DNA from: Escherichia phage phiP4
Direction: 5' to 3' (one strand)
Sequence record: PP993145.1
DNA: 64,000 bases
Part shown: piece after piece, positions 27,466 to 35,050 of the stretch
Layout of the letters: each line of letters opens with the position of its first letter
Numbering within the stretch: position 1 is the first letter of the stretch
Notes under the pieces: generated by a model
The model's database searches: none
What the model was told of the DNA's origin: nothing
Seen by the model: the letters and a program-made list of their open reading frames with translations, nothing else
Program-made: the position numbers and the translations under genes

Positions 27466-27651
27466 TTATCCTCGTTCAATATCTAGGGAAATACCGCAGT
27501 TAGGATTAATACCTGTACCATTGCAATTTGCGCAAACCCAGATATTGCAAAAAGTATCTCCTGCTTCTGCATCAGAACTTTCACCAATTCCCCTACACTC
27601 AGGGCAGGCACATTCCTCTAGCTCTTGCTTGAGTTCTTGAAACTTGGACAT
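27466..27651 (-). CDS. Cys-rich zinc-ribbon-like small protein (61 aa)
   Basis: Paired CxxC motifs (CPEC ... CANC). Confidence 0.45.
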   Translation of the reverse strand: MSKFQELKQELEECACPECRGIGESSDAEAGDTFCNIWVCANCNGTGINPNCGISLDIERG

Positions 27652-28061: not shown

Positions 28062-28580
28062 TTAGAAATTTAGCTTCATAGCAAGAAAATTTTTCAAGTT
28101 TTCGGTAGACATCTCATCCACATCTACAGGAGAAACAAAGCCGTTTAATTTTCTAGCAAATTTTTCACCTGCAGGGTCATTATCCCCGACAGCTACCAAT
28201 TTAAAAGGTAATAATTTCAGTTGCTTTAATAACGCTTTTCCTGGAGAAGAACCCAACATTGCCAGGGCTGGATAACCAGCGTTATGTAACGCAACTGCCT
28301 TAAATACAGATTCAGCAATCAATACTACTTTTTCATCTCCATTGAGAGTTTCTAGTCCCCATACACACTGGATAGTAGAATAAGTAAAATATTTAGCTTC
28401 AAATGGGCACTTACCATGACCTTTTGGAGCAGAAGGATTATACGTCTGATAGCCTCTCAACATCCCAGAGAAGTCATACAACGGGACTGTTAGCCATCCT
28501 TCCGGACTTAACCAGCAATGATATTTATCTGTATCAAATCCTCTAGATAAGAGGTGCTGTGTTAGCTCATCAACATTCAT
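28062..28580 (-). CDS. hypothetical protein (track ORF 28062..28631; start moved to ATG at 28580)
   Basis: Promoter -10 at 28611..28616 lies inside the track ORF; ATG at 28580 has a GAGAGG RBS. Confidence 0.5.
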   Translation of the reverse strand: MNVDELTQHLLSRGFDTDKYHCWLSPEGWLTVPLYDFSGMLRGYQTYNPSAPKGHGKCPFEAKYFTYSTIQCVWGLETLNGDEKVVLIAESVFKAVALHNAGYPALAMLGSSPGKALLKQLKLLPFKLVAVGDNDPAGEKFARKLNGFVSPVDVDEMSTENLKNFLAMKLNF

Positions 28581-28610
28581 ATTTGGTTCCTCTCTCAAAT
28601 TTATAGATAT

Positions 28611-28639
28611 ATTATACAGAGAATTTAGCATTCAAGCAA
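28611..28639 (-). promoter_or_regulatory. sigma70-type early promoter (TTGCTT-N17-TATAAT)
   Basis: Hexamers and spacer read directly. Confidence 0.6.
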
Positions 28640-28755: not shown

Positions 28756-28784
28756 TTGACATTTTCTCGGGGGTAGTGTAAAGT
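28756..28784 (+). promoter_or_regulatory. promoter-like element (TTGACA-N17-TAAAGT) for the + strand island
   Basis: Perfect -35 TTGACA, 17-nt spacer, weaker -10. Confidence 0.4.
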
Positions 28785-28846
28785 ATACGTTATGGATGAG
28801 TGATCAAAGAGACACACATTTTCTATATACTAGGAGGTGTCAAAAA

Positions 28847-29833
28847 ATGACAGAAGAAGTAGCTAAGAGTCCTGAGACCGTCGCTAGCGTTGCAGCAGAA
28901 CTGCACCGTCACGAGGAATCGGATAAGAAAAAGTGGGAGAAGGTCAGAGCCTACGAAGAGAAACATCGCGAACACGACGATGAAGAAGATGACGATGATG
29001 AACATTGTCATAAATATGGAAAACATAAAATGCAAGAACCAGTAAACGTATTCACTAGTGGCTTCCCTGGCCTACTGGGTGGTTACCCAGCAAACGCAGG
29101 TGCTTTCGGTGGTGAAGGTATGGGACTATTCGGAGCTATCCTAATCGGTGCTCTATTAACAGGCGGATTCGGTGGTTTCGGTGGATTCGGTGGACGTGGT
29201 GTAGTTGGTGATGGTACCGCAGTTGATGCAGTACTTCAGAACCAAGATACCGCTAGTATTCTAGCAGCTATTAACACTACTCGTACAGAAGCTAACCAGG
29301 GTACTGGAGCTGTTTTAAGCGCAGTTAACAATGGTTTTAGCCAGACATCCCAAAACCAGAGCCGTGATACTCAGTCTGTACTAACTACGATCTATGGTAC
29401 AGGTGCTAATCTGTCTAATCAGATCTGCCAGGAAACTCGCAACGTTATTCAGGGTCAGTTCGATCTTTCTCGCCAGATTGATCAATCTTTCGCAGCTAAC
29501 CAGATAGCTCGTGCACAAGATAAGTTTGATTCTGCACAGATCGCTTTCCAGCAGACTTTACAAACTAATAACCAGTTTGCCGCTGTTCAGGCTCAGATGT
29601 GTGCTAACCAGAACTCTCTGGAACGTCAGATCGCTGAATGTTGCTGTGAACTTCAGACTGCGATCGCTGGTGTAACTACTGCGCGTATCCAGGATGAGTT
29701 AGACGCATGTCGCCTACGTGAAGCAATCGCTGCTGGTAGCGGTGCTAACGGTCAGGTAATTAATCAAATCGCTTTAAGTCTTGGTGCTATCACTCAGACT
29801 CTGGCTGGTCTGCAGGCTAAACTGCCGGCTTAA
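28847..29833 (+). CDS. low-complexity protein: acidic N-terminus, Gly-Phe repeat hydrophobic segment, Gln/Asn-rich body, Cys cluster (track ORF 28796..29833)
   Basis: AGGAGG RBS before ATG at 28847; GGFGGFGGFGG and ECCCE motifs read directly. Confidence 0.5.
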   Translation: MTEEVAKSPETVASVAAELHRHEESDKKKWEKVRAYEEKHREHDDEEDDDDEHCHKYGKHKMQEPVNVFTSGFPGLLGGYPANAGAFGGEGMGLFGAILIGALLTGGFGGFGGFGGRGVVGDGTAVDAVLQNQDTASILAAINTTRTEANQGTGAVLSAVNNGFSQTSQNQSRDTQSVLTTIYGTGANLSNQICQETRNVIQGQFDLSRQIDQSFAANQIARAQDKFDSAQIAFQQTLQTNNQFAAVQAQMCANQNSLERQIAECCCELQTAIAGVTTARIQDELDACRLREAIAAGSGANGQVINQIALSLGAITQTLAGLQAKLPA

Positions 29834-29854
29834 TATTAAGGGGAGGAGCCCATT

Positions 29855-30259
29855 ATGAGTAAATATGGTTTTGTAAATAACGGACTTAATCAAAGTATGG
29901 GCTCCCAGCAGCCCATGCCGGGTCTGGATAACCCCTACTTACAACAGTTGCAACAGCGTTTAGCAGAAGCGCAACAGATGCAGCAACAACTCCAGCAAAA
30001 CCCTGGAAGTGTGAGTCCTATGCAAATGATGCAGCAAATGAGCGGGCAGTCGCAAATGCCTCAACAAATGCAGCAACAGGTGCCGCAGCAGCAAACCCAA
30101 CAACCGCAGGTTTCTGCGGAAGGACAGGCAGTACTAGCCCTTTTCGAAGACTTCGCAAAGACAGAGGATGGGAAACAGCTTGTATCACTTATGGGTAAGT
30201 TTAATAGCTTCTGCCAAAGCCAAGTTGCAAAAGCTCAAAATGGTGGTAATAACTCCTAA
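29855..30259 (+). CDS. Gln/Met-rich low-complexity protein (134 aa)
   Basis: GGAGG RBS; polyQ-like composition. Confidence 0.5.
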   Translation: MSKYGFVNNGLNQSMGSQQPMPGLDNPYLQQLQQRLAEAQQMQQQLQQNPGSVSPMQMMQQMSGQSQMPQQMQQQVPQQQTQQPQVSAEGQAVLALFEDFAKTEDGKQLVSLMGKFNSFCQSQVAKAQNGGNNS

Positions 30260-30268
30260 GGAGGAATT

Positions 30269-30463
30269 ATGTGTTGCAGAAAATCTGTTTCGTGCTGCCC
30301 AATGCCTGTAACACGTTGTTGCTCTCCAGCAATGTTTACGCAAATACCGGCGTTCAATCCGTTTGCCTTTAAACCTATTCTTATCCTGCCCCCTAGAGTA
30401 GATTTTCAGTCAAGATTGGCCTCCCGTATGGGTGGTTGCTGTACACCGAGAGTGTGGTTCTAA
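30269..30463 (+). CDS. Cys-rich small protein (64 aa)
   Basis: AGGAGG RBS upstream; multiple CC pairs. Confidence 0.45.
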   Translation: MCCRKSVSCCPMPVTRCCSPAMFTQIPAFNPFAFKPILILPPRVDFQSRLASRMGGCCTPRVWF

Positions 30464-30477
30464 ACCAAAAAACAAAA

Positions 30478-30510
30478 GCCCCTGCCGAAAGGTAAGGGGC
30501 TTTTTCTTTT
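30478..30510 (+). terminator. rho-independent terminator (GCCCCT ... AGGGGC + T-run)
   Basis: GC stem followed by TTTTTCTTTT. Confidence 0.6.
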
Positions 30511-30518
30511 GCCTTAAA

Positions 30519-30554
30519 TACAGAAAAGCCCGCGCTCTCGGAGGAAACGCGGGC
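30519..30554 (-). terminator. rho-independent terminator for the minus-strand SPFH gene (GCCCGCG ... CGCGGGC + U-run)
   Basis: GC stem followed on minus strand by TTTTCTG. Confidence 0.6.
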
Positions 30555-30579: not shown

Positions 30580-31527
30580 TTACTTGTTACGCATATCCAT
30601 GATCATTTGACCATCGTAGCCAGTACCTACCACAGTCTGAGGCACACCACCTTGATACTTCTGAGCACGAATCATTTCAACTTCCAGTTGCTTCCAGCGA
30701 ATCATCTCAGGAGTAATGGTACGTTGCAATGCGGCGTTAGCTTCAGCTTCTTTTTTAGCTGCGTACAGTTTAGCATCTGCGTCACGTTCGTTAGCAATAG
30801 CCTGGTTATTACGGGCTTCACGGTCTGCTTCTGCCTGTTTAACTTTTTGCTGTGCTTCTTGTTCAACACGAGCCAACTCAGCTTTTGCAGCATTAACTTG
30901 CTCTTCACGAACTTTGGTATTCTGTACCTGTTCCATGATTACTGGTGGCAGAGTAATATCCTGAAGGAATACCTGCTTAACTGTGTAACCATATGGGCGT
31001 GCATACTCTTCAACTTCTTGTTGAATTGCAGTTTGCAATTGAGCCTGAATTTTAGCATCAAACAAATCTTGTGCTTTAGGTACAGACTTACCAAACTCAC
31101 GAATAGTAGACAGTAATTTTTCAGTTACATATTTGTCTAACGCTTGATCCTGAGTACCCGCATTAATACGGTTAATCGGTGCCTTAGAACCATCAAACTG
31201 CAACATAACAGTCAGGTCAACAGTGGATTTAAACTTATCCTGGCTAGGAACCTGAAGTTTATCTAATTTTACAGCAATATCTTTTGTACTAAAAGTATCG
31301 AAAGATGCAAATGGGTTTACAAGATGGAAACCCGGTAATACTGGGTTAGGATCTACTTTACCCAGAAATGTTTGGGTTTTAACCGTACCATCAGAAACAA
31401 TAGTATATGAATTAAAGGCTAGAATCAAGCCTGCTAAACCAACTACAGCACCAATACCCCAACGTTTAATAGTACGAATTACTTTCTGCTCAGAAGTCAG
31501 TTCTTTCATATTTTTAGTATTAAACAT
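30580..31527 (-). CDS. SPFH/band-7 (stomatin/prohibitin/HflK-C-like) membrane protein (315 aa)
   Basis: N-terminal TM segment, SPFH-like core, C-terminal Ala/Glu/Gln-rich coiled coil. Confidence 0.65.
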   Translation of the reverse strand: MFNTKNMKELTSEQKVIRTIKRWGIGAVVGLAGLILAFNSYTIVSDGTVKTQTFLGKVDPNPVLPGFHLVNPFASFDTFSTKDIAVKLDKLQVPSQDKFKSTVDLTVMLQFDGSKAPINRINAGTQDQALDKYVTEKLLSTIREFGKSVPKAQDLFDAKIQAQLQTAIQQEVEEYARPYGYTVKQVFLQDITLPPVIMEQVQNTKVREEQVNAAKAELARVEQEAQQKVKQAEADREARNNQAIANERDADAKLYAAKKEAEANAALQRTITPEMIRWKQLEVEMIRAQKYQGGVPQTVVGTGYDGQMIMDMRNK

Positions 31528-31636: not shown

Positions 31637-32138
31637 TTTAAGTATTTTTAAGAACTCTCGTAAAAACTCTTAAAAATACAGACGATACCGGGAGAGTCAT
31701 AAGTCTCACTCATTAAGTATTTCAAGACAAAATACAGTAACGTCTATTATTTTCCAGTTTAAGTCAAGGTGACTTAGTGGTTATGTCCTGCGGTATATTG
31801 AGGACTCGGTTAGGCTTGGGGTCATGACTTCCCGCCTTTTGCTGCTACTCAACAGGAGTTATCGCGAATTACCTGTGCTATTGTGCACCATTAGTGACAT
31901 CTCTCATGTCAGCATTTCCCACTTTGTGGATAGCTTGAAAAACTACTCCGATATGGAGAAAGAACTTCACTATCCTAGAATACCTTCTAAAGTTCTTCTT
32001 TAGCCTGGACATAGTTAAATCGTAATAAAACTATTCAGCAGACTGGTTGGTTAGTCTGGAACCAACTACCGCGTGGTTTAGGCAGTGCGCAACTAACCTC
32101 GGAAGCTTTTACGTTAAAAGCATCAGTTATCCAGTTCT

Positions 32139-32210
32139 TACCGACCGTAGGATTCGAACCTACATCTTCCACCAGTTACGGCTTGATAATACCAATTATA
32201 CTAGGACGGC
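32139..32210 (-). other. tRNA-like element with acceptor and perfect T-arm but no recognisable anticodon arm
   Basis: T-arm GTAGG-TTCGAAT-CCTAC; acceptor 6/7 paired; no CCA. Confidence 0.3.
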
Positions 32211-32470
32211 AGTGTTACTACATAAGTGATTTCCACACCCCACTATTTATAAATTAGAGAAGAGTTTAAGGGAGAGGTTTCAGACGCCTCATTTTACACG
32301 TTCTAGCCACTAACCGGGATTGCCGCCCCCTGTGTACTAGTTTTACAACTAACCCACCGACTCTATTCAATGCGCTCCGGTTGGGATTCTGCACTCAGCG
32401 TAATCGGCTCGCTGTTCCCTAATTTATGAATATATTATACATAATTTATAAGCATTTAGCAAATGAATTT

Positions 32471-33916: not shown

Positions 33917-34358
33917 AATAGCCTCGTTTCATCAATTTAAAAATATATTATACAGATAACTTAGTAAATTAGCAAATACATTTTTAAATTGTGAAACTAG
34001 TAAACCGATAAACAGCCTAGAGGCGCCACAGGCCATATCTTATGAGCCATGTACCTTTGATCTAGGGTTTGAATCATCAACGAATACTTTGCATCTTTTA
34101 GCTTTAGAAGTTTAGAAGTTTGAGTTCTTTAAACTTTTCAGCTTTCATACTTAAATGTTGATCTTTGAAGTTGTGTCGGTAATATCAACGACGCTTTGTT
34201 TTTACGTGTCAGATTAAATGTCTGATGTAATAAACATAATCTCCAATAGATTATACTTTATAGTATGGTCAGCGGTCTTATTTAACCTCGTATTTCAACC
34301 GCTGCTGCGAGGTAAGATGCTTGGGCTTTCGTCTACCGATTTACTAGCTTTTAAATTA

Positions 34359-34997
34359 TTACTCTACTTCAATGAAGGTAGAGGCGTTAGACTCGGACAG
34401 AACAAAGTCAACATTTGTTGCAAAGTCCTGGTATTCCTCGTCATGCTGCTTAATCAGCTTCTCCAGTTCCAGCGGATCAATCAAGAATGGAGTATTCTTG
34501 AGTTCCAGCAGATTGAGCTGCATTTTAACTTCATCTTCGGAAGTTTTCTTATCGCGGGTAGCCATGCTATCCTGCAAACGCTCATATTTAGCATCAAACT
34601 GTGCTTTCTGCGTATTAAACTTAACCGTAGCGGCATGGAACTGCTTACGCATGTTAGCCAGCAGTTGAGCTTTAAGCTCCATAGAACGCTTAGCTTCAAT
34701 TGCTTCCGCAACAGTCATTTTACGAGAACCGATCTCAACGATTGTTTCTGCATTGCTCTTAATCAGAGCAGACTTGATACGATCACGCTGAGACATCATA
34801 TCCAGCAGAGATTGGAAATCAGTCTTAATACGAGTAGACAGGTCATCTACTTCGATTGCAGCTCCAACTACAACCTGGTTTTTATCCTTACCTTCACCAA
34901 CAGCAATCAGAAGCTGCTGTTCAGTAGCTTTACGGATTTTAGCTTCCAGAGATTTGATAGTTGCCAGAGCGCGAGTTTTAGAGATACGAGTAGTCAT
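34359..34997 (-). CDS. coiled-coil protein (212 aa)
   Basis: ORF track; the overlapping + strand ORF 34218..35030 is rejected. Confidence 0.5.
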   Translation of the reverse strand: MTTRISKTRALATIKSLEAKIRKATEQQLLIAVGEGKDKNQVVVGAAIEVDDLSTRIKTDFQSLLDMMSQRDRIKSALIKSNAETIVEIGSRKMTVAEAIEAKRSMELKAQLLANMRKQFHAATVKFNTQKAQFDAKYERLQDSMATRDKKTSEDEVKMQLNLLELKNTPFLIDPLELEKLIKQHDEEYQDFATNVDFVLSESNASTFIEVE

Positions 34998-35050
34998 TAT
35001 TTGCTTCCTTATATGAAGTTTGAGATTTGAATTTATTTAAAGTTGGTCTA

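What the first reader, a model, noticed from the sequence alone, without database searches (positions are those of the whole stretch)
28756..30510. Plus-strand island of three low-complexity proteins inside the minus-strand gene block
Three + strand genes with strong RBSs have their own promoter-like element and are bracketed by convergent terminators. The proteins are unusual: one has an acidic N-terminus, a Gly-Phe repeat hydrophobic segment, a Gln/Asn-rich body and a Cys cluster; one is poly-Gln/Met rich; one is Cys-rich. The composition resembles prion-like or phase-separating domains.
Basis: seen in the sequence. Interest (0 to 1): 0.7.

Follow-up and report, generated by a model that had tools for sequence, protein, structure and literature searches.

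The report
T5.077-079 accessory membrane-protein operon
This is the already-annotated but functionally unknown T5.077-T5.079 operon of T5-like phages, a dispensable self-contained gene cassette whose main protein is a membrane-anchored helical rod with an invariant triple-cysteine motif and belongs to a very large, uncharacterised family of phage proteins.

Summary
Three + strand genes lie at 28847-29833 (gpA, 328 aa), 29855-30259 (gpB, 134 aa) and 30269-30463 (gpC, 64 aa). They have a TTGACA-17-TAAAGT promoter, strong ribosome binding sites and a bidirectional terminator, inside a minus-strand tRNA/early-gene block of a T5-like phage. The T5 reference genome already annotates this as T5.077-079 with promoter P12 and an efficient terminator. 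Its function is unknown, and a published knock-down screen scored all three genes 'Not fit'.

The prion-like reading holds only for a non-conserved Gln/Met/Pro linker in gpB. gpA is predicted to have an N-terminal helix, an acidic stretch, a Gly-rich hydrophobic anchor and one ~190-residue helix.

New here: gpA belongs to a family of at least 657 clusters (50% identity) with an invariant Cys-Cys-Cys motif on the helix's hydrophobic face and a 3.6-3.67-residue periodicity. Members occur in Crassvirales, Clostridia phages and others, where sampled inside variable accessory cassettes. No Pfam, NCBIfam, PADLOC or PDB relative exists.

Most likely this is a moron-like cassette making a Cys-stapled, membrane-tethered helical bundle with two small partners. 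What it does is inferred weakly. Moderate interest.

The parts
28756..28784 (+). Sigma-70-type promoter TTGACA-17-TAAAGT, equivalent to 'promoter P12' of T5 and phage 5
   Evidence: Found by the scan. Annotated as P12 in AJ604531 and NC_005859. Both hexamers are conserved at -84 to -91 from the start codon in 11 of 12 loci checked, including L007 and L008 with different spacers.
28832..28837 (+). Ribosome binding site AGGAGG of gpA
   Evidence: Read from the sequence. Annotated as a ribosome binding site in AJ604531.
28847..29833 (+). gpA, the T5.077 homologue (328 aa): N-terminal helix, acidic/His-rich linker, Gly-rich hydrophobic anchor, long helix carrying the CCC motif
   Evidence: ORF. 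PHROG 8119, E 2.7e-204. Homologues. AlphaFold model. Family of 657 representatives.
29123..29206 (+). gpA residues 93-120: hydrophobic Gly-zipper-like segment MGLFGAILIGALLTGGFGGFGGFGG, the presumed membrane anchor
   Evidence: The best 17-residue Kyte-Doolittle hydropathy is 1.92. An equivalent segment scoring above 1.4 is present in 116 of 154 family members. G91, G107, G110 and G112 are invariant in the 18-sequence alignment A1.
29639..29647 (+). gpA Cys265-Cys266-Cys267, the invariant CCC motif (QIAECCCEL)
   Evidence: These are the only invariant columns in the 42-sequence alignment A4. The motif is present in nearly all 150 listed representatives. The middle Cys lies on the hydrophobic face: offset +23 degrees, resultant length 0.89, n=132.
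29855..30259 (+). gpB, the T5.078 homologue (134 aa): conserved helix 27-48, variable Gln/Met/Pro linker, conserved C-terminal helical hairpin 88-129 with one invariant Cys
   Evidence: PHROG 7894. Alignments A2 and A10. AlphaFold model.
30269..30463 (+). gpC, the T5.079 homologue (64 aa): begins with MCC, has four Cys-Cys pairs, is Pro-rich and has an NPF motif
   Evidence: Full length in 220 phage records. A positional homologue beginning with MCC is present in L007, L008 and L009. pN/pS is 0.42 in frame.
30474..30510 (.). Bidirectional intrinsic terminator: a GAAA-loop hairpin flanked by an A-run and a T-run
   Evidence: Fold energy -21.4 kcal/mol (z -3.97) on the + strand and -21.5 kcal/mol (z -3.42) on the - strand. 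Annotated as 'efficient bidirectional rho-independent terminator' in T5 and 'ter1' in phage 5.
30518..30556 (-). Minus-strand terminator of the convergent SPFH gene. It also holds the T5 nick consensus Pu-GCGC.
   Evidence: Found by the scan. Fold energy -20.7 kcal/mol, z -3.48. T5 annotates a major single-chain interruption at the equivalent place.

Best explanation
The island is the T5.077-T5.078-T5.079 operon. It is an autonomous accessory ('moron-like') transcription unit of T5-like phages, read by host sigma-70 RNA polymerase from promoter P12 and closed by a bidirectional terminator. It is dispensable for growth in the laboratory.

Its main product, gpA, is not a disordered prion-like protein. 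It looks like a membrane-tethered rod with four parts:
- a T5-lineage-specific N-terminal helix plus an acidic/His-rich stretch;
- one Gly-rich hydrophobic anchor;
- a helix of about 190 residues, uncharged-polar and rich in Asn/Gln/Ser/Thr/Ala, with a roughly 11/3 (hendecad-like) hydrophobic periodicity;
- an invariant Cys-Cys-Cys layer on the hydrophobic seam of that helix.

I infer that gpA forms a helical bundle at the inner membrane in which the Cys layer is stapled by bound metal or by disulfides. I infer that the long helix lies most probably on the cytoplasmic side. I also infer that gpB (a helix, a spacer and a helical hairpin with one invariant Cys) and gpC (an MCC... mini-protein with four Cys-Cys pairs), neither of which has an export signal, are its partners.

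The complex most probably changes a property of the infected cell's envelope that matters only under natural conditions. Candidates are exclusion of superinfecting phage, envelope stabilisation or lysis timing. It is unlikely to serve replication or virion structure.

Shown: the gene structure, the conservation, dispensability in one knock-down screen, the predicted architecture, family membership, and the accessory and variable genomic context.

Inferred: oligomerisation, topology, the chemistry of the cysteines, interaction among the three proteins, and above all the biological role. I give the envelope/exclusion role itself only about 0.2-0.25.
For: Gene structure and earlier annotation.

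Dispensability: the supplement of the CRISPRi-ART screen (PMC11879866) lists T5.077, T5.078 and T5.079 as 'Not Fit' with unknown function.

Autonomy and mobility:
- The same three-gene unit occurs in divergent T5-like contigs (L007, L008). It also occurs in a 61.7-kb contig next to terminase and portal genes (L009).
- The left-hand neighbour differs between Tequintavirus (a Toprim gene) and Epseptimavirus (an NMN adenylyltransferase gene).

Architecture:
- AlphaFold model of gpA.
- Hydrophobic anchor present across the family.
- Periodicity peaks at 3.64 residues with 7 times the shuffled power, against 1.3 times at 3.5.
- CCC is invariant and the middle Cys sits on the hydrophobic face; the local motif is L-x3-[LIM]-A-x-CCC-[ED]-x-[RK]-x2-I.

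Family size: 657 representatives at E<=1e-3 and 61 at E<=1e-10.

Accessory context elsewhere:
- In Clostridia phage or prophage contigs the gene sits downstream of the lysis genes where these are seen, and in some loci ahead of an integrase.
- In Butyrivibrio virus Ceridwen it lies after the endolysin and a predicted terminator.
- In crassvirus cr116_1 it lies between the endolysin and the capsid gene. The block is missing from the equivalent place in crAss001, and crAss001 gave no tblastn hit.

Cytoplasmic side favoured:
- The flanks of the anchor are almost uncharged, with more K/R on the C-terminal side in 50 members against 14 (52 equal).
- The helical domain is Cys-rich even in phages found on Clostridia-assigned contigs.
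- gpB and gpC have no signal peptide (read directly from their sequences).
Against: - No experiment or homology assigns a function. Pfam, NCBIfam, PADLOC, PHROG annotation and the PDB all give nothing.
- Oligomerisation and metal or disulfide stapling were not modelled, because only monomer predictions were possible.
- The topology evidence is weak. Half of the family is uninformative. The T5-lineage N-terminal extension of about 90 residues has 12 K/R, which argues against its translocation, so the anchor could instead be an in-plane hairpin or have the opposite orientation.
- In crassviruses the gene lies next to head genes, which also fits a virion role.
- 'Not fit' in a knock-down screen has limited sensitivity: 13 essential T4 genes also scored Not fit.
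- Interaction of gpA, gpB and gpC rests only on conserved gene order.
Confidence: 0.45

Rival explanations
1. Prion-like or phase-separating proteins: the Gln/Asn- and Gln/Met-rich regions drive condensate or amyloid-like assembly in the infected cell.
For: Composition: gpB is 26% Gln, the extreme of the window. gpB residues 49-86 are modelled with low confidence. gpA residues 126-328 are 23% Q+N.
Against: The Q/N-rich part of gpA is modelled as a confident helix with a conserved periodicity and a conserved Cys core. The gpB linker shrinks to nearly nothing in divergent homologues while its flanks stay conserved. gpA also has a hydrophobic anchor.
Confidence: 0.08
2. A virion-associated ejection (pilot) or fibre protein. 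gpA would be packaged or attached to the particle and, like phiX174 protein H, would insert its Gly-rich segment into the host membrane and form a long helical conduit. Alternatively it would form a capsid fibre, as the crassvirus labels 'spike protein/glycoprotein' and 'viral fiber' suggest.
For: The architecture resembles phiX174 H: a Gly-rich hydrophobic segment followed by a long polar helix with non-heptad periodicity (knowledge of H from Sun et al. 2014, recalled from memory). In crassviruses the gene lies in the head-gene region, directly after the major capsid gene in L127. It is often followed by a small beta-rich protein with a sub-threshold BclA_C match (E 3.4e-6, 27.4 bits against a cut-off of 38).
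Against: There is no sequence relationship to H (hhalign probability 0.2%). In T5 the operon has an early-type sigma-70 promoter, lies in the tRNA/early region and is dispensable. The module is missing from crAss001, whose virion has been solved. In Clostridia phages it lies after the lysis genes, outside the structural block.
Confidence: 0.15
3. A lysis-associated membrane-fusion or disruption device, like a spanin or a class I fusion protein. gpA would act as the membrane-anchored coiled-coil component and gpC as the small Pro/Cys-rich partner.
For: The gene lies near or downstream of holin and endolysin genes in three phage groups. There is a weak profile match to the influenza HA2 fusion peptide plus coiled coil (E 9e-4), and gpA carries the literal string GLFGAI. 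gpC is small and Pro-rich, as Rz1 is.
Against: T5 already has annotated Rz-like spanins, T5.044 and T5.045, about 1.5 kb from its holin and endolysin genes. gpC has no signal peptide or lipobox. The family is common in phages on Clostridia-assigned contigs, whose hosts are mostly single-membrane bacteria (general knowledge). The periodicity is 3.64, not the heptad 3.5. The HA2 alignment is gapped and driven by composition (accuracy 0.66). The operon is dispensable.
Confidence: 0.07
4. A cytoplasmic membrane tether that organises phage DNA or an assembly process, analogous to the phi29 early protein p16.7 (transmembrane segment, coiled coil, functional head).
For: An early-type promoter in the early region. 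An anchor plus a long helix, with the favoured orientation placing the helix in the cytoplasm.
Against: No DNA-binding or other recognisable head domain was found; the helical domain is nearly uncharged and no family matches it. The operon is dispensable. The comparison with p16.7 rests on memory, not on a test.
Confidence: 0.1

Closest known systems
T5.077 / T5.078 / T5.079 of Escherichia phage T5 (NC_005859); 'ORF 327aa / 138aa / 64aa' of Salmonella phage 5 (AJ604531)
   Same: This is the same locus. The window is 97-98% identical in DNA to close relatives. Those records annotate the same promoter (P12), three ribosome binding sites, three ORFs and a bidirectional terminator.
   Different: Nothing of substance differs. 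Those records give no function ('hypothetical protein'). Many other T5-like records do not call the 64-aa gene at all.
Crassvirus ORFs labelled 'spike protein/glycoprotein' or 'outer capsid protein/viral fiber' (e.g. cr116_1 KNV40_gp022; Bacteroides phage C3_41T2LP gene 36)
   Same: They belong to the same protein family as gpA: a Gly-rich hydrophobic segment, a long polar helix and an invariant CCC.
   Different: They are only 20-33% identical to gpA. They lack the acidic N-terminal domain. They carry Gly/Tyr/Trp- or Cys/Gly-rich C-terminal tails. They are followed by different genes (a small beta-rich protein, DUF7841). No experiment behind the labels was found in the paper library, and I take them to be remote-similarity labels.
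phiX174 DNA pilot protein H
   Same: Similar length (328 aa). A Gly-rich hydrophobic N-terminal part followed by a long polar (Gln/Asn-rich) helix with non-heptad repeats. The properties of H are recalled from the literature.
   Different: No detectable homology (hhalign probability 0.2%). H has no CCC motif. H is a virion protein, whereas gpA is encoded in a dispensable early-region cassette.
Two-component spanins (lambda Rz/Rz1; T5.044/T5.045)
   Same: A membrane-anchored helical protein with functionally important cysteines, plus a small Pro-rich partner gene immediately downstream.
   Different: gpC has no lipoprotein signal. gpA has about 90 residues before the anchor and a much longer helix. 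T5 has separate spanins. Homologues occur in phages on Clostridia-assigned contigs.
Influenza haemagglutinin HA2 (class I fusion protein)
   Same: A Gly-rich hydrophobic peptide (GLFGAI...) followed by an Asn/Gln-rich helix. It is the best PDB sequence match (E 9e-4).
   Different: The match is weak, gapped and compositional. The periodicity is not heptad. gpA has no C-terminal transmembrane anchor. Foldseek finds nothing.
Phage 'morons' (autonomous accessory transcription units; the concept of Hendrix and colleagues)
   Same: Own promoter, own terminator, orientation independent of the neighbours, dispensable, and found in unrelated phage backbones.
   Different: This unit has three genes rather than one, and it is stably inherited across Tequintavirus and Epseptimavirus. 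GC3 of gpA (0.35) matches the genome background (0.33 +/- 0.05), so there is no sign of recent acquisition.

Membership tests
Uncharacterised 'CCC-motif' phage protein family (PHROG 8119 and distant relatives) | Invariant Cys-Cys-Cys within a [LIM]-A-x-CCC-[ED] motif | tested here: met
   gpA has QIAECCCEL at residues 261-269. C265-C267 are the only invariant columns among 42 diverse members.
Uncharacterised 'CCC-motif' phage protein family (PHROG 8119 and distant relatives) | A Gly-rich hydrophobic segment N-terminal to a long helix with 3.6-3.67-residue periodicity | tested here: met
   Hydropathy of the anchor segment is 1.92. The AlphaFold model has a helix at 135-325. The family spectrum peaks at 3.64. 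For gpA alone the peak is at 3.62-3.70 but is not significant on its own (52 of 500 shuffles reach it).
Uncharacterised 'CCC-motif' phage protein family (PHROG 8119 and distant relatives) | Significant profile similarity | tested here: met
   A profile built from gpA and its relatives recovers 657 representatives at E<=1e-3 and 61 at E<=1e-10. The first distant hits, P0027-P0030, had E 2e-5 to 5e-4. These distant hits were themselves part of the query profile (alignment A1), which helps it reach their relatives.
Prion-like / phase-separating low-complexity domain | Gln/Asn-rich compositional bias | tested here: met
   gpB is 33% Q+N. gpA residues 126-328 are 23% Q+N.
Prion-like / phase-separating low-complexity domain | The biased region is intrinsically disordered | tested here: not met
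   The gpA biased region is modelled as a helix with pLDDT about 85-93. Only gpB residues 49-86 are low-confidence.
Prion-like / phase-separating low-complexity domain | The biased region is the conserved, selected element | tested here: not met
   The gpB linker varies from about 0 to 45 residues among homologues while its flanks are invariant.
Prion-like / phase-separating low-complexity domain | Self-templating aggregation or demixing | not testable with these tools
   This needs purified protein or live-cell imaging.
Two-component spanin (Rz/Rz1 type) | The outer-membrane subunit has a signal peptide with a lipobox Cys | tested here: not met
   gpC starts MCCRKSVSCC with no hydrophobic signal sequence.
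Two-component spanin (Rz/Rz1 type) | Part of the lysis cassette and the only spanin of the phage | tested here: not met
   T5 annotates Rz-like spanins T5.044 and T5.045 about 1.5 kb from its holin and endolysin genes, roughly 15 kb from this operon.
Two-component spanin (Rz/Rz1 type) | The inner-membrane subunit is N-in/C-out with a periplasmic coiled coil | tested here: inconclusive
   Charge distribution across the family slightly favours the opposite orientation (50 against 14, 52 uninformative).
phiX174 H-type DNA pilot protein | Sequence or profile homology to H | tested here: not met
   hhalign probability 0.2%. BLASTP finds only short compositional matches.
phiX174 H-type DNA pilot protein | Component of the virion | not tested
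   No virion proteome table could be read: the supplement of PMC8624392 is not held.
Class I viral fusion protein (HA2-like) | Heptad-repeat (3.5-residue) trimeric coiled coil after the fusion peptide | tested here: not met
   Power at period 3.5 is 1.3 times the shuffled value, against 7 times at 3.64.
Class I viral fusion protein (HA2-like) | Significant sequence or structure similarity | tested here: inconclusive
   The best PDB profile hit is HA2, at E 9e-4 with a gapped alignment. Foldseek against the PDB finds nothing at E<=0.001.
Moron-type accessory transcription unit | Own promoter and own terminator | tested here: met
   plus the annotation.
Moron-type accessory transcription unit | Dispensable for lytic growth | tested here: met
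   Published CRISPRi-ART data score T5.077-079 as 'Not Fit'. The screen's sensitivity is limited.
Moron-type accessory transcription unit | Compositional or phylogenetic signs of independent mobility | tested here: inconclusive
   The unit is present in an unrelated backbone (L009). Island GC is 0.46-0.485 against 0.36-0.40 in the flanks. But GC3 of gpA is at the genome background; gpB is +2.6 sd and gpC +1.6 sd.

The most novel reading that the evidence does not exclude
The CCC proteins define an ancient, widely exchanged and so far undescribed phage accessory device. It would be a membrane-tethered rod built on 11/3-periodic helices, with a metal- or disulfide-stapled triple-Cys core, recruited with lineage-specific partner proteins: gpB and gpC in T5-like phages; a protein with a sub-threshold BclA_C match, DUF7841 and Gly/Tyr-rich proteins elsewhere. 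It would perform one common job in phages of Enterobacteria, Bacteroidales and Clostridia. That job could be a new class of superinfection-exclusion or envelope-remodelling machine, or an ejected trans-envelope conduit analogous to phiX174 H. T5 would then be a genetically tractable entry point to a protein family that is abundant in gut viromes.
Probability: 0.25. Interest if true: 0.75.

Novelty: new member of a known kind. Interest (0 to 1): 0.45.

Why it matters
T5 is a model phage, yet this operon has carried the label 'hypothetical' since the genome was annotated.

The analysis links it to a family of at least 657 sequence clusters. Members include genes of human-gut crassviruses that carry 'spike glycoprotein' or 'viral fiber' labels for which I found no experimental support. 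It also shows that the family has a sharply defined signature: a hydrophobic anchor, hendecad-type helices and an invariant CCC layer on the helix's hydrophobic face.

If the shared function can be found in T5, where deletions and knock-downs are easy, it would annotate a recurrent block of viral dark matter in gut and rumen phages. It might also reveal a new way for phages to act on membranes.

If no phenotype is found, the operon remains one more dispensable accessory cassette.

Tried and rejected
- **Known families.** Pfam, PHROG annotation, NCBIfam and PADLOC gave nothing for the three proteins. Pfam and NCBIfam gave nothing for 42 family members.
- **PDB by sequence.** Only weak compositional HA2 hits for gpA and none for gpB.
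- **Foldseek of the gpA model against the PDB.** Only vimentin at E>2, which is uninformative for a single long helix.
- **Homology of gpA to phiX174 H.** Rejected.
- **gpC as a split-off version of the Cys/Pro-rich C-terminal tails of other family members.** hhalign probability 0.1%; rejected.
- **gpB as a homologue of the 'NPY...Q-rich' proteins next to CCC genes in gut and Clostridia phages.** hhalign probability 3%, only a short Gln-rich helix aligns; rejected as homology.
- **Canonical heptad coiled coil.** Rejected by the periodicity analysis.
- **Spanin role.** Weakened, because T5 has T5.044 and T5.045.
- **The gene after the crassvirus CCC gene as the crAss001 head-fibre protein gp29.** Not supported. 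gp29 lies between the holin and the endolysin, and crAss001 lacks the module.
- **Recent horizontal acquisition from composition.** GC3 of gpA equals the background.
- **Neighbours of CCC genes in other phages.** All are of unknown function.
- **Literature.** No paper text mentions T5.077-079. Two supplements had nothing or were not held.
- **The search for related loci with the broad alignments A4 and A7.** Failed for lack of a conserved stretch.
Full report
**What the window is**

The window comes from a T5-like phage (Tequintavirus). The 1.86-kb stretch around the finding is 97-98% identical to Salmonella phage GSP044, Escherichia phage T5_ev212 and many others, and 387 phage records match it. 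It lies in the tRNA region: 22 tRNA genes are present, all on the minus strand.

**Check of the observation**

- Three + strand ORFs are present: gpA at 28847-29833 (328 aa), gpB at 29855-30259 (134 aa) and gpC at 30269-30463 (64 aa).
- The longer gpA ORF from 28796 is unlikely. Its ATG lies 12 nt after the -10 hexamer, while the ATG at 28847 follows AGGAGG by 9 nt.
- gpB follows GGAGG by 8 nt. gpC follows AAGGAGG by 4 nt.
- The promoter-like site TTGACA-17-TAAAGT sits at 28756-28784. Both hexamers recur at -84 to -91 from the start codon in 11 of the 12 loci checked. These include two divergent relatives (L007, L008) whose spacers differ, which argues for function. Only L009 lacks it.
- After gpC there is a hairpin with a GAAA loop at 30474-30504 plus a T-run. 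Its energy is -21.4 kcal/mol (z -3.97), and it folds equally well on the other strand.
- A second, minus-strand terminator lies at 30556-30526 and serves the convergent SPFH gene.
The 5' side is a divergent promoter region.
- The protein descriptions are accurate. gpB is the most Gln-rich (26%) and Met-rich (8%) of the 63 ORFs of at least 100 aa in the window. gpC is 12.5% Cys against a mean of 1.3%. gpA residues 76-125 are 40% Gly.
- From 20 to 34 kb, every ORF of at least 100 aa outside the island is on the minus strand. One further + strand ORF at 34218-35030 overlaps a minus-strand ORF and was not resolved.

**It is already annotated**

GenBank AJ604531 (phage 5 tRNA region) and the T5 reference NC_005859 annotate exactly this. 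They list promoter P12, three ribosome binding sites and three ORFs (327, 138 and 64 aa in phage 5; T5.077, T5.078 and T5.079 in T5). They also list a bidirectional terminator, called 'efficient' in the T5 record. All three products are 'hypothetical'.

The supplement of the CRISPRi-ART study (PMC11879866) lists them as 'unknown function'. It scores all three as 'Not Fit', meaning that knock-down had no measurable cost. The authors note that the screen misses some essential genes. No paper text in the library mentions these genes.

**The genes are real and travel together**

- gpA and gpB match PHROG 8119 and PHROG 7894, both of unknown function.
- gpC matches no family and is often not called by annotators. 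A full-length 64-codon ORF is nevertheless present in 220 phage records.
- gpC substitutions concentrate at third codon positions. pN/pS is 0.42 in frame against 0.9-1.05 in the other frames. All eight Cys are invariant in the eight phages compared.
- Divergent relatives with gpA at 36-47% identity keep the same three-gene order. The third ORF always starts with MCC, has a second CC pair 15-30 residues later, and in most has an NPF-like motif.
- One such unit lies in a 61.7-kb contig beside terminase and portal genes (L009).
- Within T5-like phages the left-hand neighbour differs between genera, while the convergent SPFH gene is constant.

**Architecture of the proteins**

gpA, from the AlphaFold model built on a 42-sequence alignment:
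- helix at residues 9-45 (pLDDT about 90);
- a low-confidence acidic/His-rich stretch;
- a short helix at 94-104 inside the Gly-rich hydrophobic segment MGLFGAILIGALLTGGFGGFGGFGG;
- one continuous helix at 135-325, with pLDDT about 85-93 over residues 140-270.

gpB:
- a conserved helix at 27-48;
- a Gln/Met/Pro-rich linker modelled with low confidence, whose length ranges from about 0 to 45 residues among homologues;
- a conserved helical hairpin at 88-129 (pLDDT 83-89) with one invariant Cys.

The prion-like composition is therefore confined to a non-conserved spacer in gpB. The Gln/Asn-rich body of gpA appears ordered.

**A large hidden family**

A word-indexed search found, beyond T5-like proteins, four distant hits with the same layout and an identical CCC motif. 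An exhaustive profile search then found 657 representatives of 50%-identity clusters at E<=1e-3, and 61 at E<=1e-10. The query profile included those four distant hits, which helps it reach their relatives.

- Nearly all of the 150 listed representatives are 200-370 aa long and contain CCC.
- Many end in CGCGC-type or Gly/Tyr/Trp-rich tails.
- In a 42-sequence alignment the three Cys are the only invariant columns.
- No Pfam or NCBIfam model matches any of the 42 members.

Family-wide measurements:
- The hydrophobic periodicity of the helical region peaks at 3.64 residues, with 7 times the power of shuffled sequences. At 3.5 the power is only 1.3 times. In 110 of 126 members the peak lies between 3.6 and 3.7. 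These are therefore hendecad-type or straight amphipathic helices, not heptad coiled coils. For gpA alone the peak at 3.62-3.70 is not significant (52 of 500 shuffles reach it).
- Relative to the local hydrophobic face, the middle Cys sits at +23 degrees and its neighbours at -76 and +121 degrees. The resultant length is 0.89 over 132 members.
- The local motif is L-x3-[LIM]-A-x-CCC-[ED]-x-[RK]-x2-I. In a helical bundle this would place a layer of cysteines in and around the core.

**Topology**

The flanks of the hydrophobic segment are almost free of charge. The C-terminal flank has more K/R in 50 members, the N-terminal flank in 14, and they are equal in 52. The cytoplasm is the likelier home of the long helix, for three reasons:
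- this weak charge bias;
- the abundance of Cys in the helical domain even in phages found on Clostridia-assigned contigs;
- the absence of export signals in gpB and gpC.

The evidence is weak. The T5-lineage N-terminal extension is charged, which argues against its translocation. An in-plane hairpin anchor remains possible.

**Genomic context of the family**

- *Crassvirales* (80 loci). The CCC gene heads a conserved same-strand block: a small beta-rich protein, a 170-aa protein, a small acidic protein, DUF7841 and a 128-aa protein.
- *Crassvirus cr116_1.* The block lies between the endolysin and the capsid genes, and the gene is labelled 'spike protein/glycoprotein'. crAss001 lacks the block at the equivalent place and gave no tblastn hit. 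Its solved virion does not involve such a protein.
- *A second set of 80 viral contigs.* In crass-like environmental phages the gene directly follows the major capsid gene (Crass_capsid, E 1.9e-211). In gut phages it is followed by a protein with a sub-threshold BclA_C match (E 3.4e-6, 27.4 bits against a cut-off of 38).
- *Contigs binned into Clostridia and some Bacteroidales genomes.* The typical neighbours are a 126-aa protein, a Gln-rich plus beta-domain protein, a 70-aa helical protein, the CCC protein, a BclA_C-type beta-rich protein and a Gly/Tyr/Ser/Arg-rich protein. The block lies downstream of the holin and GH25 endolysin genes where these are seen. In some loci an integrase follows within a few genes, which is the classical position of accessory genes.
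- *Butyrivibrio virus Ceridwen*, a cultured phage. It shows the same arrangement after its endolysin and a predicted terminator.

Every neighbour is of unknown function. The partners differ between lineages. Neither gpB nor gpC is detectably related to them.

**Comparison with known systems**

- *phiX174 H* resembles gpA in layout, but there is no homology (hhalign probability 0.2%).
- *Influenza HA2* is the best PDB sequence match, and gpA even contains the string GLFGAI. The match is weak (E 9e-4), gapped and compositional. The periodicity is also not heptad.
- *Foldseek* finds nothing.
- *Spanin role.* Unlikely, because T5 has Rz-like spanins T5.044 and T5.045 about 1.5 kb from its holin and endolysin genes. 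gpC also has no lipoprotein signal, and the family is common on Clostridia-assigned contigs.
- *Defence-system models.* None match.
- *Composition.* The island's higher GC (0.46-0.485 against 0.36-0.40) is largely explained by amino-acid composition. GC3 of gpA is 0.35 against a background of 0.33 +/- 0.05.

**Best explanation**

This is a moron-like accessory operon encoding a membrane-tethered helical rod (gpA). I infer that the rod forms a bundle with a Cys-lined core, stapled by metal or by disulfides, and that the two small Cys-bearing proteins gpB and gpC are its partners.

- The gene structure, conservation, dispensability in one screen, predicted architecture, family membership and accessory context are shown.
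- Oligomerisation, topology, cysteine chemistry, interaction among the three proteins and the biological role are inferred.
- I favour a role at the infected cell's envelope (superinfection exclusion, stabilisation or lysis timing), but at only about 0.2-0.25.
- The rivals are a virion ejection or fibre protein (0.15), a cytoplasmic tether like phi29 p16.7 (0.1), prion-like or condensate behaviour (0.08) and a lysis fusion device (0.07).

**Verdict**

- The locus is real and was already annotated. Its function is still unknown.
Its prion-like interpretation is largely not supported.
- The added value is the link to a large, sharply defined and uncharacterised phage protein family, with T5 as a tractable model.
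- Interest is moderate (0.45). The most novel reading not excluded is a new class of phage membrane device shared across very different phages, at a probability of about 0.25.

Noticed in passing
window 30529-30541 (- strand terminator loop/stem): The minus strand reads ...GAGA|GCGC|GGG, which matches the T5 nick consensus 5'-N-Pu-pGCGC-N. The T5 reference annotates a 'major DNA single-chain interruption' at the equivalent position, 75 nt after the T5.079 stop codon. One of the T5 genomic nicks therefore appears to sit inside the terminator of the SPFH gene.
   Followed up: partly
window 28062-28631 (-): A Toprim/primase-like protein, the T5.076 homologue (Pfam Toprim_2, PHROG 849). The CRISPRi-ART supplement labels T5.076 'anti-defense: subverts retron-mediated defense' and scores it Semi-Fit. 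It also matches the PADLOC model RTasDnaG-like (DRT) at E 5.9e-7.
   Followed up: partly
window 30580-31527 (-): An SPFH/Band-7 membrane protein, the T5.080 homologue, is convergent with the island. It is the constant right-hand neighbour in all Tequintavirus and Epseptimavirus loci examined. In the divergent relative L008 the convergent gene is instead a different 190-aa protein with an N-terminal transmembrane segment. Whether the two membrane-protein units are functionally linked is unknown.
   Followed up: no
window 27466-27651 (-): A 61-aa ORF with paired CxxC motifs (CACPECRG...CANCNG), which looks like a zinc ribbon. It is probably equivalent to the 61-aa gene that phage BB1 annotates as 'antitermination protein Q' two genes upstream of the Toprim gene. 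The equivalence was judged from size and position only.
   Followed up: no
records OM386657 (ESCO30), ESCO40, EH3, UTK0010: gpB homologues are annotated in some GenBank or UniRef records as 'cAMP-dependent protein kinase catalytic subunit'. Nothing here supports that label (no Pfam kinase match). The 64-aa gpC gene is left uncalled in most T5-like records.
   Followed up: partly
L152 4617-5285 and similar loci among L137-L178: Some gut-phage members of the CCC family carry two CCC motifs about 29 residues apart (...AQQAQCCCNTQKEIL...AQMAQCCCDIKESIL...), which indicates an internal duplication of the motif-bearing unit. Other members show literal 11-residue repeats, for example GFAGVNQNVSN / GVAGIQNSLCN / GFAGVNQTVQN in P0035.
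   Followed up: partly
L181-L260 (e.g. L205 4242-7738): In Clostridia phage or prophage contigs the CCC module is preceded by a small protein resembling sigma-70 region 4 (Sigma70_r4_2, E 8e-4). The module includes a 126-aa protein (PHROG 3754) whose conserved Cys (VGDCVIRA) and His (GTHVIAV) suggest, by eye only, a papain- or transglutaminase-like enzyme. It stands next to Gln-rich and Gly/Tyr-rich proteins, a combination reminiscent of spore-coat cross-linking systems. None of this was tested.
   Followed up: no
window 34218-35030 (+) versus 34359-34997 (-): Two long ORFs, 270 aa and 212 aa, overlap on opposite strands. Only one is likely to be a gene, and which one was not resolved.
   Followed up: no
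window 31637-32400 (-): By synteny with T5 and phage 5, the stretch after tRNA-Arg should correspond to 'RNAX', a stable RNA of unknown function annotated in those records. It was not examined here.
   Followed up: no
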